A stretch of 64,000 bases of DNA from Dictyostelium discoideum (Eukaryota): contig CM000153.2 of NCBI GenBank assembly GCA_000004695.1, positions 512,001 to 576,000 on the forward strand. Direction: 5' to 3'. How positions within the stretch are numbered: the first letter of the stretch is position 1; each line of letters begins with the position of its first letter. Position numbers and translations under genes: made by a program. Positions 57,125 through 62,122 of this stretch are shown here, piece after piece. The notes under the pieces are model-generated. The model did no database searches. It was not told the origin of the DNA and saw only the letters and a program-made list of their open reading frames with translations.

Positions 57125-57128
<4 letters not shown>

Positions 57129-60100
57129 CTATATTGATTTTCATTTTGAGATAAAGATAATAAAAGTTGTTCATCGAAATGTTTACCAAAATTAACATCT
57201 TCAGATAGACCTTTTCTCTTACGAGTTTTGATTAAAAGTTCACGAGCCAAATGAAGTTTTGGAGAAGGTTCTAATGGACGAAGTTTAATTGATTTATCTA
57301 AAGGATCACCTGGAACCACTTGCCAATGATCAAATGTTGAAAGACAGAAAGCTTGACCTTGAGTATGAACTCTAAGATCGGTTTCAAAACCATATGAATC
57401 CAATACGGGTATTAAAGCTTTTGTAATGTGAAGTGGTGTACCAGGTTTTGGCAAGTCATGAATGATATGACCACGACGACGTGTTAAAACATTTTCGATT
57501 GCATTGAGACAATCGATTGGTGAGATTACTTCAACTAGATAAACAGGCTCCATTAAACGTGGTGTTGATACTAAAAATGATGAATGTGTTACAGAACGTG
57601 CGGCAGGTACAATATGGCCACTGGATCTTTGAATTGGTTCAGAGGCAATGGTGGCATCCAATAGTTTGAATTTTACATTTCTAATTGGTTCATCAACCAA
57701 TGGACCTTCTTTAGTGGCCCATTGGAAGCCTCTAACCACGGAATCAGAGATGGATAATAGAAGGGATCTGTTCACTTCAGTTGGGAGGGTATCGTTCAAT
57801 AGGATATTTGGACCATTGATATCTGGACCAAATGCCCAAATCGAATTGGAGGCTAAAACATCCCAGTCGTACTTTGATTGGAAATATTCTGATCTCTTTT
57901 TCTTTGGCCAATCCAGTTTCACCATACCATTTTCAATATCATCGGCTAATCCATTCTCCAATGGTTCAGCGATCATTGTTAGACGATTCTTTTTATTTTG
58001 AGTATCAGCATAACATTTAATTGATGAAGTTTCAACGATTGTTTCTGTCAATGTGATAACTGGATCATCTACTTTGATTTCAATCTCTGTATACATTAAT
58101 CTAAGGTCATGTAAAATACAATCTAAATAAAGCTCACCTGTACCTAAAATAACATGTTCACCCGATTCCTCAGCCTTTGTAATTGCCAATGGATAGGATT
58201 TATCGATCTTTCTTAAACCATCCAACATCTTTGGTAATTCCGATGGATTGATTGGTTCGATTGCAACCTTACAAACTGATTTAGTTATGAAATGAAGTGG
58301 ACGGAAAATATGTGCCCTATTCTCATCCTCGTCAGATGATAAATCTTTTTTTGAGGTAATGGTGGCAGTCTTTACGATTGGACCATCGACACCATCTAAT
58401 AAAACCCACATACCTGCTTGTGCTTTTTCAATCTCGATTTTATAACGTGCTTCACCAATGAAAACGCCTTCACATTCACATTCTTCCATATCTTCTTCAT
58501 TATTATCTGGTGAGTATTTTTCACGTAAAACTCTAATGGATTGACCTTTACTAATGCTACCAGACATAATACGACCTAAACAATCGAATCCTTTACCATC
58601 GGGTTTTGATAATAACTTTGTGATATAAATTAGCAATGGACCCTTTGGATCACATTCCACCAATGACCTGCCATACTCACCATTCAATGGACCTGTATAG
58701 AGTGTTGTTGCTTTACGTCTAGCATTATCAATTGGTGATGGTAATGCTGCCAACATATCTACAAATGCATTTGATTTACCACCGAAAAATGAACCCAATA
58801 CAACTCTTAACAATGGTCTAATATCTAAATTATAAGTTTCTTTTGAAAGTTTAATACCCAATTCTCTTAGGGTTGCTTCAACCACTGGTTTCTCTTCACT
58901 AATTACAGTTGAATAAATCTTATAAATTGGATTTAAAATAAAGTGTACAAATGATCTTACATGTTCACCATTTCCTGATGCTTGTTTTCTAAACATACGT
59001 GTACTTTCATTAAAATAAAGATCACCCCATAATCTTTTAGCAAATTCACTACTCTTAAAACCACCACCATAAGTTTCAATATAAATATTTGCGAATGATT
59101 CTAAACTAAAACACCAACCCATTTCTGAACTTGCAAAAATAACATTACCTAATTCTGGTGATACTTTAATCTTTTCATTAGCACTACCTCTAGTATTACC
59201 ATCACTACCACCACTACCACTACCATGTGAACATAAATCTAAAATTGAATTAACTTCATCAATTGTATGTTTTAATTTAAAATATGCATCTACTGGTGGT
59301 AATTTTAATTCTAATATTAATCTATCCATTTTATTTATAACAACACAAATTGATAAACCTTCAGCAACAGCATGTTTAATTAATCTTTCAGTTTGCATCA
59401 TTACACCTTCTAATGCATCAATGATAATTACAGCAATATCTGATAATGCAATTGATGCAGTAACTTCATCTAAAAAGTTTGGATGTCCTGGTGTATCTAA
59501 TATATTAATTAAATATGATTTATCTTTTGAATTTGGTAAAACTAATGACATTGGTGTTGACTTTATTGATATTAATCTTTCTTGTTCATCATTTCTAGTA
59601 TCTGTATATCTCATCTATTTTTTTTTTAAAAAATTAAATTAAATTAATATATATATATATCTTTTTATAAAATATAATATATATTTATATACTTACTGGT
59701 TTTGAACTTAACCATTTCTTTTCATGAGTTTGTTGAAATAACATATCCATGAATGAAGTTTTACCATGATGTAATTGACCGATTAAAGAAACATTTCTAA
59801 TGAATTGTGGATATGTTGATAAATCGGTTAAAAATTGTTTAGAATAACTTGTTTCTGGATAATCTTTTTCAGTGATTGTAAATGATTTATTTTTCTTTGG
59901 ATCAATGATTGGTTTTGATAATGGTTGTGAATCTTCATCTTGTACCATAACTTCAACACCTTTATAAACATCTGATGCATCTGGAAAATATTGTTTATCT
60001 TCATGTAATACAATTGCTGATGTTGTTGAAATTTGTATATTATCTCTATCTATATTCATTTCATCACCACCATCATTATCTCCTGTTTCTTCTATATGTG

Positions 60101-60263
60101 CTTCATCGTCATTATATTGTTGTTGTTGTTGTTGTTGGTTTGGTTTTCTATCCTCTTCCTCCTCCTCTTCTTGTTGTTGCTGTTGTTGATCATATGTTAC
60201 TTCTTCATCTTCTAAACTTTCTCCAATATAATTACCAAATTCATCATATAAATTATCTGACAT
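57125..60263 (-). CDS. eftud2: U5 snRNP 116-kDa GTPase (Snu114/EFTUD2, EF-2 family), ~1018 aa, two exons complement(join(57125..59614, 59697..60263))
   Basis: Exon 1 encodes MSDNLYDEFGNYIGESLEDEE...VLHEDKQYFP...IRNVSLIGQLHHGKTSFMDMLFQQTHEKKWLSSKP (human MDTDLYDEFGNYIGPELD...VLHEDKKYYP...[28 protein letters not shown]). After a GTAAGT...ATAG intron (82 nt), exon 2 encodes MRYTDTRNDEQERLISIKSTPMSLVLPNSKDKSYLINILDTPGHPNF...GVMMQTERLIKHA...INKMDRLILELKLPPVDAYFKLKHTIDEVN..., near-colinear with human EFTUD2 to the C-terminus. Confidence 0.85.
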
Positions 60264-60497
60264 TATTAATTATAATTCTATATGAATAAAAATAATATTA
60301 TATATATAAATATATATTTTAATTTACAAAATGTGAATGCTCAAATCACGCACACACCAATGAAAATTCACAAATAAAAAATAAATTTAAAAATAAAAAT
60401 AAAAATAAAAAAAAAAAAAAAAAATGAAAATTTCGAAAAGTGAAATTTTTACAATTAACATGTTGTAATTTTTTTTTTTTTTTCATTAATTAAATTA

Positions 60498-60539
<42 letters not shown>

Positions 60540-60565
60540 TAAATAAATAATAAAAATAAATAATA
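60264..60565. promoter_or_regulatory. ~300 bp bidirectional promoter shared by the Snu114/EFTUD2 (-) and AAR2 (+) genes
   Basis: The start codons lie at 60263 (- strand) and 60566 (+ strand), head to head. The interval is AT-rich with an (AAT)n tract. Confidence 0.55.
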
Positions 60566-62122
60566 ATGGATAATGAAAAAGCTAGAGAATTAAATGAAAA
60601 ATATGCAACATTATTAATATTAGATGTACCAGAAGGTTCAACAATTGGAATTGATAATAAAGTTTGGACGTCAGGTCCAATGTTTAAAGGTGTTAAAATG
60701 ATACCACCTGGTGTTCACATGTTTCATTGTACTTCTTCAAATGAATATGGTGATAGTGTTTTAATATCTAGTAGTTTTATATGGGTGAATGAAATCAATA
60801 ATAATAAAAAGAATAATAATAATAATAATAATAAAGATAATTATGTTGGTGAAGAAACTAATGGTTCACAACAAGTTTTCATAAAACGTTGGAATAAAGA
60901 AGAAGAAGATTTCTTTCCGGATCAGTCAATTACTGAACAAGAGATTCAATCTTATACATATGCAGTTAGAAACTTTGAATTTGATAAAAATCTTGCACCA
61001 TATCCATTCGATGGTACTCAAATTCAATGGAATTTACTAACATCACATATCACCAAATCCCTATTGGATAGAATTTTACCAATTTCAAATATCATAAATG
61101 GAGATTCATGTTCATATGATCAACAACAAAATAGTGCTTCTTCAAAAAAAGAAAAAAAACTTTTAAATGATTTAGATTTAAAATTAAAACAATTTAATGA
61201 ATCAAGAGGATCACCCTCAACAAGTAGCACCACCACCACCACCACCACCACCACCACCACCAGTAGTACTACTAATAATAGTAAATCAAAGAATTGGGGT
61301 GTACCATATTTTTCAAAAATACCAAAAAATCCAATAATTCAAAATTCAACAGCAACGACAACAACAGGTAATAATAGTATTGATATTAGTAATTTAAGTA
61401 AATGGAATATTGATAAATCTGAATGTATTGAATTTATAATTAATAAATATTATAAAGATAATGAAATGGATTTATTAGGTGAAATTGAATTTTGTTTTGT
61501 GTTATTTATATTTGGTATGACATGGTCAGGATTTCAACAATGGAAAGAATTGGTGACGTTGTTTCTATCATGTGATGAATTAGTTTTAAAGAAACCAATA
61601 CTTTTTATTGAATTTTTTAAGATATTAAAAAATCAATTACAAGAAGCACCAAATGATATGTTTGAATCGGAATTGTCAAATAGAGTATTCATTAAACCAT
61701 TACTAAAACAATTCATTGAATCAGTTTATAATCCTGAATTTACAAATCTTGAACAATTATCACCAATTCAATTACAATTATTTAAAACAATAATTGATTT
61801 AAAAAATTATGTTTCAAATAAATTTAATTGGAATTTAAATTTATTTAATCAAATTAATTTTAATAATAATTATAATGAAAATAATAATAAACCATTTGGA
61901 ATTAAAAAAGAATATAATGAAAATAATAAAAATAAAGATGATGATGATGATGAAGATGATGATGATGATGAAGAAGAAGATAATAATAATAATAATAACA
62001 ATAGTAATGAAAAATCAATTAATTATCAACAACAAAATAACTATGACAATGAAGATTATGATAGTGAAGATGATGAATATAAACCTGTATTAGTAATGGA
62101 TACTGATATGAATTATTTGTAA
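60566..62122 (+). CDS. aar2: AAR2 splicing factor homolog (U5 snRNP assembly factor) with N-rich and acidic insertions
   Basis: ORF of 518 aa. [44 protein letters not shown] matches human AAR2 ([44 protein letters not shown]). Further similarity includes LAPYPFD (human LGPYPY) and [13 protein letters not shown] (human GELQFAFVCFLLG). Confidence 0.75.
   Translation: [518 protein letters not shown]

What the first reader, a model, noticed from the sequence alone, without database searches (positions are those of the whole stretch)
57125..62122. Two U5 snRNP biogenesis genes (Snu114/EFTUD2 and AAR2) arranged head-to-head on a 300-bp bidirectional promoter
AAR2 is the assembly chaperone that accompanies Prp8 and Snu114 during cytoplasmic U5 snRNP maturation. 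Finding it divergently transcribed from Snu114 itself, with start codons only ~300 bp apart, implies co-regulation of functionally coupled partners. This is a eukaryotic analogue of an operon and is worth checking for conservation in other dictyostelids.
Basis: partly seen in the sequence, partly recalled or inferred. Interest (0 to 1): 0.6.

Follow-up and report, generated by a model that had tools for sequence, protein, structure and literature searches.

The report
Divergent Snu114–AAR2 gene pair, Dictyostelium
Two already-annotated Dictyostelium discoideum genes for U5 spliceosome proteins (Snu114/eftud2 and an AAR2 homologue) do sit head-to-head 302 bp apart, and the pairing is old within social amoebae, but it is an ordinary example of a known kind of gene arrangement and its co-regulation remains untested.

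Summary
The minus strand carries a two-exon Snu114/EFTUD2 gene of 1018 aa (57125-60263, with an 82-nt intron). The plus strand carries a single-exon AAR2 gene of 518 aa (60566-62122). Their ATGs are 302 bp apart. The window is D. discoideum AX4 chromosome 4, and the genes are eftud2 (DDB_G0283359) and DDB_G0283361. A 2011 supplementary table already lists them as a two-gene block shared with D. purpureum.

Synteny:
- The strict head-to-head pair (173-354 bp spacers) is present in all seven Dictyosteliales genomes examined, covering groups 4 and 3.
- In Heterostelium album (P. pallidum) the two genes are still divergent, but an Integrator-subunit-14 gene lies between them.
- In Acytostelium, Cavenderia (D. 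fasciculatum) and Balamuthia they are not within 8 kb of each other.

The spacer has an A18 run and a T15 run flanking a 44-bp core, the published signature of Dictyostelium transcription starts. This predicts starts about 80 bp apart. A 12-mer, AAATTCACAAAT, is conserved as far as D. purpureum.

Co-expression could not be tested. Retention is roughly what a very short spacer would give neutrally. "Operon analogue" is not justified. Interest is low to moderate.

The parts
57125..59614 (-). Snu114/eftud2 exon 2 (829 codons plus TAA stop at 57127-57125)
   Evidence: ORF. Pfam GTP_EFTU, GTP_EFTU_D2, EFG_III, EFG_IV and EFG_C. Collinear with human SNU114.
59615..59696 (-). Snu114 intron, 82 nt, GTAAGT...TAG, phase 0
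   Evidence: Read. Joining the exons restores ...WLSSKP|MRYTDTR..., collinear with orthologues. tblastn HSPs break at the same position in P. violaceum, T. lacteum, H. album and A. subglobosum, but not in D. purpureum.
59697..60263 (-). Snu114/eftud2 exon 1 (189 codons: acidic EFTUD2 N-terminal domain plus the G1 motif GQLHHGKT)
   Evidence: Pfam PF16004, E=2e-34.
60264..60565 (.). ATG-to-ATG spacer, 302 bp, 9.6% G+C. It holds both 5' leaders and the shared promoter region.
   Evidence: The equivalent spacers are 255 bp (second D. discoideum strain), 303 (D. citrinum), 256 (D. firmibasis), 354 (D. purpureum), 243 (P. violaceum) and 173 (T. lacteum).
60347..60361 (.). CA-rich island CACGCACACACC overlapping a CCAAT
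   Evidence: Present in both D. discoideum strains. D. firmibasis has an expanded CA repeat plus CCAAT, and D. citrinum has CCACCCAACACACCAAT. Function not tested.
60364..60375 (.). Conserved 12-mer AAATTCACAAAT, 92-122 nt from the Snu114 ATG in every Dictyostelium species examined
   Evidence: It occurs once in the 64-kb window. It occurs once each in L001, L002 and L006 and in L014, always inside the spacer and in the same orientation. Exact matches expected in 16 kb of D. purpureum on both strands: 0.07. That is about 8e-4 for the 354-bp spacer in one orientation.
60407..60424 (-). A18 on the + strand, which is poly-T on the Snu114 sense strand. Predicted Snu114 transcription start is about 60405, giving a leader of about 142 nt with no ATG.
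   Evidence: Coordinates. The rule that the 3' end of the sense-strand poly-T lies about 2 bp upstream of the TSS is from Chang et al. 2012, PMC3371697. The prediction is inferred, not measured.
60425..60468 (.). 44-bp central block between the two homopolymer runs, the presumed shared core of the bidirectional promoter
   Evidence: AAATTTCGAAAA(G/A)TGAAATTTTTACA is conserved between D. discoideum and D. firmibasis. D. citrinum keeps most of it, starting at TTCGAAAATGAAATTTTTACA. No canonical TATAAA(A/T)(A/T) lies here.
60469..60483 (+). T15 on the AAR2 sense strand. Predicted AAR2 transcription start is about 60485-60486, giving a leader of about 80 nt with no ATG.
   Evidence: with the rule from PMC3371697. 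T-runs of 12-28 sit at the same relative place in D. citrinum, D. firmibasis and D. purpureum.
60498..60533 (+). (AAT)n microsatellite in the predicted AAR2 leader, length-polymorphic between strains
   Evidence: It is largely absent from the second D. discoideum strain. This accounts for most of the 302 versus 255 bp difference.
60566..62122 (+). AAR2 homologue (DDB_G0283361), single exon, 518 aa plus stop
   Evidence: Pfam AAR2_1st and AAR2, PDB 7PJH, collinear with eight dictyostelid orthologues.
57089..57126 (-). A38 on the Snu114 sense strand, starting inside the stop codon. Predicted transcript end marker.
   Evidence: The rule that the sense-strand poly-A starts about 1 bp after the transcript end is from PMC3371697.

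Best explanation
This is a compact divergent (bidirectional) pair of two independent RNA polymerase II genes, eftud2/Snu114 and the AAR2 homologue.

Their core promoters lie back to back. A poly-T run on each sense strand (A18 at 60407-60424 for Snu114, T15 at 60469-60483 for AAR2) flanks a 44-bp central block. The two transcripts are therefore predicted to start only about 80 bp apart, from what is probably one nucleosome-free region.

The conserved CA-rich/CCAAT/AAATTCACAAAT island lies just downstream of the predicted Snu114 start. It is more likely a Snu114-proximal promoter or leader element than a shared enhancer.

The adjacency is old. It was fixed before groups 3 and 4 diverged. Because H. 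album still has the two genes divergent and one gene apart, it was probably present in the dictyostelid ancestor and later broken in Acytostelium and Cavenderia.

I think it persists mainly because a spacer this short offers almost no place to break without damaging the promoter of a gene expected to be essential. Similar housekeeping expression of a U5 assembly chaperone and a protein of its client complex is a likely consequence and a possible added benefit.

Shown: gene identities, anatomy, synteny pattern and motif conservation. Inferred: transcription start positions, the shared nucleosome-free region, co-expression and the reason for retention.
For: Identity and anatomy.

Strict head-to-head pair:
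- second D. discoideum strain
- D. citrinum
- D. firmibasis
- D. purpureum
- P. violaceum
- T. lacteum

In D. purpureum and T. lacteum none of the flanking genes in the fetched loci matches a D. discoideum flank. Sucgang 2011 lists the pair as a two-gene block (807) whose neighbours fall in other blocks.

H. album has AAR2(-) | IntS14(+) | Snu114(+). H. album and A. subglobosum share both outer flanks of this site, but A. subglobosum has an actin gene where H. album has AAR2 plus IntS14. That points to a local loss in A. subglobosum.

Synteny outside group 4 is reported as generally not observed (PMC5097433; PMC7919456).

Promoter model: the order 12-mer, A-run, T-run is conserved at similar distances in five Dictyostelium genomes. 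The poly-T/TSS rule comes from PMC3371697. Neither predicted leader contains an ATG. The 12-mer is unique in the window and in each related locus.

At 302 bp this is the shortest of about six head-to-head spacers in the window (roughly 750-2900 bp for the others, from the ORF map). The genome average intergenic length is about 700 bp (PMC5295588).

Conserved divergent pairs with short spacers tend to be functionally related (PMC2871058).
Against: No expression data, TSS data or reporter data were available for these two genes.

The 12-mer was not found in P. violaceum or T. lacteum, so no cis-element is shown to be shared across the whole clade that keeps the pair.

No canonical TATA box sits about 29 bp upstream of either predicted start.

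A crude random-breakage estimate, anchored on the D. discoideum/D. purpureum figures, gives 7-16% retention over groups 3+4 for an average adjacency. If breakage scales with spacer length it gives 34-49%. Retention therefore needs no selection for co-regulation.

The linkage was lost at least twice without apparent harm.

Only one non-dictyostelid outgroup (Balamuthia) was available.
Confidence: 0.6

Rival explanations
1. Chance neighbours, neutrally retained and independently regulated. The two genes became adjacent by accident in a gene-dense genome. They stay together only because a 170-350 bp spacer is a small target for rearrangement, and each gene is driven by its own proximal elements with no meaningful coupling of expression.
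For: About half of all genes in a compact genome have a divergent upstream neighbour. With hundreds of complexes, a few functionally related neighbours are expected by chance (estimate). The neutral retention estimate is 34-49% for a short spacer. Linkage was lost in A. subglobosum and C. fasciculata, and a gene was inserted in H. album. The conserved 12-mer is proximal to Snu114 only. In D. discoideum, divergent lncRNA-mRNA neighbours show no general co-expression (PMC5295588).
Against: The predicted starts are only about 80 bp apart, so fully independent promoters are physically hard to accommodate. The pair survives as an isolated two-gene island while the flanks in the fetched loci changed in D. 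purpureum and T. lacteum. The partner is not a random gene but a protein of the same cytoplasmic PRPF8-AAR2-EFTUD2 assembly intermediate.
Confidence: 0.3
2. A selected snRNP-biogenesis neighbourhood. Linkage of AAR2 with Snu114 (and, in H. album, IntS14) is maintained by selection because shared chromatin and promoter control keeps the assembly chaperone and its client complex in step.
For: The functional coupling is documented in yeast and human. Linkage spans both dictyostelid orders. The gene inserted between them in H. album is itself an snRNA-processing factor, Integrator subunit 14, and all three Pfam domains score above their gathering thresholds. Conserved divergent pairs are enriched for shared function (PMC2871058).
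Against: There are no expression data. Linkage was lost twice. IntS14 is not near the pair in any other species examined. From memory, not tested here, SNU114 and AAR2 are on different chromosomes in S. cerevisiae, S. pombe and human. Prp8, the protein AAR2 actually binds, is not in the window (Pfam survey).
Confidence: 0.15
3. Misidentified genes or an operon-like single transcript. For example, the GTPase is an eEF2 or EFL1 paralogue, the ORF is not AAR2, or both are made from one polycistronic RNA.
For: Snu114 shares all five domains with eEF2, and Pfam also gives a weak EFL1 hit.
Against: The Snu114-specific acidic N-terminal domain is present at E=2e-34. The human SNU114 match scores 1176 bits against 610 for eEF2. 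Both AAR2 domains are present, and the protein matches PDB 7PJH. The genes are on opposite strands and point away from each other, so a common transcript is impossible.
Confidence: 0.01

Closest known systems
Bidirectional (divergent) gene pairs with a spacer under 1 kb and functionally related products. Examples are HSPD1/HSPE1 and the fungal/alveolate RPL13/RPS16 pair described in PMC2871058. Histone H2A-H2B and H3-H4 pairs are cited from memory.
   Same: Head-to-head orientation, a very short spacer, products acting in one pathway or complex, and conservation of the pair while surrounding gene order decays.
   Different: Shared regulation is not demonstrated here. Conservation is limited to one eukaryotic clade and was lost in some members. 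The products are a transient chaperone and a stable subunit, not two stoichiometric subunits that contact each other. AAR2 binds Prp8 rather than Snu114 (abstracts).
Canonical Dictyostelium core promoter architecture (sense-strand poly-T ending about 2 bp before the TSS, TATA at about -29, sense-strand poly-A after the transcript end; Chang et al. 2012, PMC3371697)
   Same: A T15 run lies upstream of AAR2 and an A18 run (poly-T on the other strand) lies upstream of Snu114. An A38 run begins at the Snu114 stop codon.
   Different: Two such promoters are placed back to back only 44 bp apart, and neither has a consensus TATAAA(A/T)(A/T) at the expected place. TSS positions are predicted, not measured.
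Bacterial operon
   Same: Only the idea that gene neighbourhood reflects shared function.
   Different: Opposite strands, two promoters and two mRNAs, with no polycistronic transcript possible.

Membership tests
Snu114 / EFTUD2 (U5 snRNP 116-kDa GTPase) | Acidic N-terminal EFTUD2 domain that eEF2 lacks | tested here: met
   PF16004, E=2e-34, covering profile 1-124/124.
Snu114 / EFTUD2 (U5 snRNP 116-kDa GTPase) | EF-2-like five-domain body with intact G motifs | tested here: met
   GTP_EFTU, GTP_EFTU_D2, EFG_III, EFG_IV and EFG_C all score above their cut-offs. GQLHHGKT, DTPGH and NKMD are visible in the translation.
Snu114 / EFTUD2 (U5 snRNP 116-kDa GTPase) | Closer to Snu114 orthologues than to eEF2 | tested here: met
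   Human SNU114 1176 bits over residues 2-1013; best eEF2 610 bits.
Snu114 / EFTUD2 (U5 snRNP 116-kDa GTPase) | Physical presence in the U5 snRNP, bound to Prp8 | not testable with these tools
   Requires biochemistry.
AAR2 (U5 snRNP assembly factor) | AAR2 N-terminal domain plus AAR2 C-terminal repeat region | tested here: met
   PF20981 E=3e-39 and PF05282 E=3e-40; both cut-offs are 23.6 bits.
AAR2 (U5 snRNP assembly factor) | Sequence homology to an AAR2 of known structure | tested here: met
   Human AAR2 7PJH, E=2.4e-32, matched in three stretches spanning both domains.
AAR2 (U5 snRNP assembly factor) | Binds the Prp8 RNase H-like and Jab1/MPN domains and is replaced by Brr2 | not testable with these tools
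   Known for yeast and human (PMC3677097 and PMC9629490). Not examined for Dictyostelium.
Bidirectional gene pair / bidirectional promoter | Divergent transcription with less than 1000 bp between the genes | tested here: met
   302 bp ATG to ATG. Definition as quoted in PMC2871058.
Bidirectional gene pair / bidirectional promoter | Shared regulatory elements or correlated expression | not tested
   No expression or TSS data were reachable. There is only a sequence-based prediction of starts about 80 bp apart.
Bidirectional gene pair / bidirectional promoter | Evolutionary conservation of the pair | tested here: met
   Kept in 7 of 7 Dictyosteliales genomes (plus the window). Interrupted in H. 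album. Lost in A. subglobosum and C. fasciculata.
Operon | Genes on one strand, co-transcribed from one promoter | tested here: not met
   Opposite strands, diverging.

The most novel reading that the evidence does not exclude
[quoted passage not shown] It is kept by selection as a small snRNP-biogenesis neighbourhood, with IntS14 joining it in Heterostelium. A single shared promoter of about 80 bp, with lineage-conserved elements such as AAATTCACAAAT, sets matched expression of a U5 assembly chaperone and a component of its client complex.
Probability: 0.15. Interest if true: 0.45.

Novelty: new member of a known kind. Interest (0 to 1): 0.25.

Why it matters
If co-regulation were shown, this would be a tidy natural case of an assembly chaperone gene wired to a gene of its client complex through one minimal promoter, in an organism where a 300-bp promoter is easy to dissect.

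The species that kept, interrupted or lost the linkage would then form a natural experiment on whether neighbour co-expression needs physical adjacency.

As it stands it adds one example to a well-described class. It changes nothing about how U5 snRNP assembly or bidirectional promoters are understood.

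Tried and rejected
- Exact look-up of the window's AAR2 protein found nothing. The AX4 sequence is not in that collection, so orthologues were reached by homology instead.
- A homology search with only Snu114 exon 1 returned almost only short fragments and no dictyostelid loci. One capped search was wasted.
- Expression tables: the main-text search for both DDB_G ids gave 0 papers. Supplements of Parikh 2010 are not held. Supplements of Schilde 2016, Rosengarten 2016/17 and Rosengarten 2015 do not contain the ids. The co-expression test could not be done.
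- I hoped Logan contigs carrying eftud2 (L010-L013) would mark transcript ends. They retain the intron and stop inside the A18 and A38 homopolymers, so they are assembly breaks and give no TSS evidence.
- The sigma-70 promoter and terminator scan is irrelevant for a eukaryote, and it found no more sites than shuffles did.
- There are no tRNA genes or Rfam families anywhere in the window, so the GC-richer island in the spacer is not a known RNA gene.
- A k-mer search for a motif shared by all five species' spacers found none. Only TCACAAA reaches four species.
- Heidel et al. 2011, the source for inter-group synteny, is not held. I relied on statements in papers that cite it.
- A PDB sequence search to confirm that the C. 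fasciculata DUF383/DUF384 neighbour is an HGH1 homologue gave no hit. That identification rests on memory.
- Rejected: eEF2 paralogue, operon, and unannotated AAR2 remnants in A. subglobosum or Balamuthia. The last was checked with tblastn at E<=50, which found nothing credible.

Full report
**What is there**

The region is AT-rich Dictyostelium DNA. On the minus strand there is a two-exon gene:
- Exon 1 is 60263..59697 (189 codons).
- The intron is 59696..59615, 82 nt, with GTAAGT at its 5' end and TAG at its 3' end.
- Exon 2 is 59614..57125 (829 codons plus TAA).

Exon 1 matches the Snu114-specific N-terminal domain (PF16004, E=2e-34). Exon 2 matches the five EF-2-type domains. The spliced 1018-aa protein aligns over its whole length with human SNU114 at 1176 bits, against about 610 bits for eEF2.

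On the plus strand, 60566..62122 is one 518-codon ORF. It carries both AAR2 domains (E=3e-39 and 3e-40) and matches the human AAR2 crystal structure 7PJH at E=2.4e-32.

The two ATGs face away from each other across 302 bp of 9.6% G+C DNA.

**Provenance and prior knowledge**

Supplementary file 2 of Sucgang et al. 2011 (PMC3188802) lists eftud2 at chr4 569125-572263 and DDB_G0283361 at chr4 572566-574122. These have exactly the lengths and spacing seen here, so the window is D. discoideum AX4 chr4 512001-576000. Supplementary file 3 of the same paper names eftud2 as DDB_G0283359, a U5 snRNP subunit.

The same table already places the two genes together in "Block 807", a two-gene block of conserved order with D. 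purpureum scaffold_202. The neighbouring genes DDB_G0283355 and scdA fall in other blocks. The genes are thus annotated, and their co-linearity with D. purpureum is on record, though only as a table row.

No paper in the searchable library discusses a Dictyostelium AAR2 or eftud2, or this pair.

**Synteny**

I used AAR2 and Snu114 orthologues and their genomic contexts. The strict head-to-head pair is present in:
- a second D. discoideum strain, 255-bp spacer
- D. citrinum, 303 bp
- D. firmibasis, 256 bp
- D. purpureum, 354 bp
- Polysphondylium violaceum, 243 bp
- Tieghemostelium lacteum, 173 bp

These are all the sampled members of the order Dictyosteliales, which covers groups 4 and 3 (taxonomy; group labels).

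None of the other genes in the fetched D. purpureum and T. lacteum loci matches a gene flanking the D. discoideum pair.

In Heterostelium album (P. pallidum, group 2) the annotation showed no AAR2 next to Snu114. tblastn, however, found AAR2 at L007 4025-5614 on the opposite strand. Between the two lies a single 627-codon ORF. It passes the Pfam thresholds for VWA_2, IntS14_b-barrel and IntS14_C, so it is an Integrator subunit 14 homologue. The two U5 genes are thus still divergent, 2.4 kb apart.

Acytostelium subglobosum shares both outer flanks of this site with H. album: a large DUF7743-type gene upstream, and eIF5B, sybindin and rpS6e downstream. It has an actin gene where H. album has AAR2 plus IntS14, and no AAR2 remnant.

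In Cavenderia fasciculata (D. fasciculatum, group 1) AAR2 is head-to-head with a different gene, and no Snu114 lies within 8 kb. In Balamuthia no AAR2 lies within 8 kb of Snu114.

Gaining linkage between two particular genes twice is far less likely than losing it twice. The simplest reading is that linkage predates the split of the two dictyostelid orders and was lost in Acytostelium and Cavenderia. This is an inference from few genomes and a single distant outgroup.

**How much does the conservation mean?**

Conservation in D. purpureum alone means little. Sixty-three percent of 1:1 orthologues lie in perfectly conserved blocks averaging 2.8 genes, which I convert to roughly 40% of adjacencies retained.

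Beyond group 4, published statements say that synteny is essentially not observed. Survival in T. lacteum and partial survival in H. album are therefore less trivial.

A crude random-breakage model anchored on the D. purpureum figure gives 7-16% retention across groups 3+4 for an average adjacency. If breakage scales with spacer length it gives 34-49%. So the pattern is compatible with passive retention of a very short spacer.

Adjacency of two U5-related genes has a prior of about 0.5-3%. Across all complexes in a genome, a few such cases are expected by chance. None of this proves selection for co-regulation.

**Anatomy of the spacer and likely mechanism**

Chang et al. 2012 (PMC3371697) showed genome-wide three rules for Dictyostelium genes:
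- The sense-strand poly-T tract ends about 2 bp upstream of the TSS.
- TATAAA(A/T)(A/T) sits about 29 bp upstream of the TSS.
- A sense-strand poly-A tract begins about 1 bp after the transcript end.

The spacer contains exactly one long A-run (A18, 60407-60424, which is poly-T for the minus-strand gene) and one long T-run (T15, 60469-60483). The two runs point outward from a 44-bp central block.

This predicts a Snu114 start near 60405, with a leader of about 142 nt, and an AAR2 start near 60485, with a leader of about 80 nt. The starts would be about 80 bp apart, and neither leader contains an ATG. There is no consensus TATA at the expected positions.

The same order recurs at similar distances in both D. 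discoideum strains, D. citrinum, D. firmibasis and D. purpureum: conserved island, then A-run, then central block, then T-run.

The island includes an exact 12-mer, AAATTCACAAAT (60364-60375). It occurs once in the 64-kb window and once in each related Dictyostelium locus, always in the spacer and in the same orientation. For D. purpureum the chance expectation is about 8e-4, derived. It was not found in P. violaceum or T. lacteum.

Because the island lies just downstream of the predicted Snu114 start, it is more likely a Snu114 promoter-proximal or leader element than a shared enhancer.

My working model is one nucleosome-free region with two outward-facing initiation sites. The consequence would be broadly similar housekeeping expression of both genes. 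The TSS positions, the shared nucleosome-free region and the co-expression are inferred, not shown.

**Function of the partners**

AAR2 accompanies PRPF8 and EFTUD2/Snu114 in the cytoplasmic U5 precursor and is later released (abstracts of PMC13338715, PMC5461031, PMC3677097 and PMC9629490). Two qualifications apply. Snu114 is a stable subunit rather than a biogenesis factor. AAR2's direct partner, Prp8, is not encoded in this window (Pfam survey of the other long ORFs).

**Comparison with known systems and verdict**

This is a member of the well-known class of conserved divergent gene pairs with short spacers. That class is enriched for functionally related products (PMC2871058). It is not operon-like, because it has two strands, two promoters and two mRNAs.

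What is new:
- the explicit recognition of the pair as functionally coupled
- its distribution across Dictyostelia, including the IntS14 insertion in Heterostelium
- the promoter anatomy

What is missing is the key test, co-expression, which I could not reach. I rate it a new member of a known kind, of low to moderate interest.

Noticed in passing
L007 (Heterostelium album) 5858-7741, + strand: The gene inserted between AAR2 and Snu114 in H. album is an Integrator subunit 14 homologue (VWA_2, IntS14_b-barrel and IntS14_C all above Pfam cut-offs). From established knowledge, Integrator cleaves snRNA 3' ends, so three consecutive genes there relate to snRNP biogenesis. No homologue lies near the pair in the window or in the other loci fetched by then.
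   Followed up: partly
L004 (Cavenderia fasciculata) 6534-7757, - strand: Where AAR2 has lost Snu114, it is head-to-head (243-bp spacer) with a DUF383+DUF384 gene. From memory this is the HGH1 family, a folding chaperone of eEF2, which is the paralogue of Snu114. A PDB sequence search did not confirm the identity.
   Followed up: partly
L008 (Acytostelium subglobosum) 5369-6499 versus L007 4025-7741: H. album and A. subglobosum share both outer flanks of the Snu114 site, but A. subglobosum has an actin gene in place of AAR2+IntS14. This is a cleanly delimited local replacement.
   Followed up: partly
window 57089-57126: The Snu114 TAA stop codon runs straight into a genomic A38 tract on the sense strand. 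By the rule of Chang et al. 2012 this predicts a transcript end at or within a few bases of the stop codon, so there would be almost no 3' UTR.
   Followed up: no
window 60284-60320 and 60498-60533, versus L001 7746-8000: The spacer length differs between D. discoideum strains (302 versus 255 bp). The difference comes from a (TA)n stretch near the Snu114 ATG and an (AAT)n stretch in the predicted AAR2 leader. Both AAR2 proteins also differ in their poly-N and poly-T/S tracts.
   Followed up: no
L002 (D. purpureum) 4569-7646 versus window 59615-59696: The Snu114 intron after codon 189 appears at the same position in D. discoideum, D. firmibasis, P. violaceum, T. lacteum, H. album and A. subglobosum, seen as tblastn HSP breaks. 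It is absent in D. purpureum, which gives a single HSP. This is a lineage-specific intron loss.
   Followed up: no
window 53011-56727, + strand: A 1238-codon ORF made almost entirely of poly-N, poly-Q and poly-S tracts, with no Pfam match. It is conserved in the second D. discoideum strain. No homologue lies at the corresponding place in D. purpureum.
   Followed up: no
window 1450-2991, - strand: A PYM homologue with a Mago-binding domain (E=7.6e-14), which is another splicing-linked (exon junction complex) factor. It lies 55 kb from the pair, with unrelated genes between: NUDIX, tgr-like TIG genes, beta-adaptin, a kinase-WD40 protein, an MFS transporter, FIBP, G-alpha and WASH7. There is no larger splicing cluster.
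   Followed up: yes
window 35836-36784 versus L002 14762-16048: A G-alpha gene lies 24 kb from the pair in D. discoideum, and a G-alpha gene lies 5 kb from it in D. purpureum (57% identity over the best 83-residue HSP). This may be loose synteny with local rearrangement, or a paralogue.
   Followed up: no
L010-L013 (Logan contigs): Four independent short-read assemblies of eftud2 all end inside the A18 run (window 60406 or 60413). The one contig that reaches the 3' end of the gene (L010) also ends inside the A38 run. All four retain the intron. This shows how homopolymers fragment Dictyostelium assemblies. The contigs differ from the window by a 2-nt insertion in the intron's TA repeat.
   Followed up: yes
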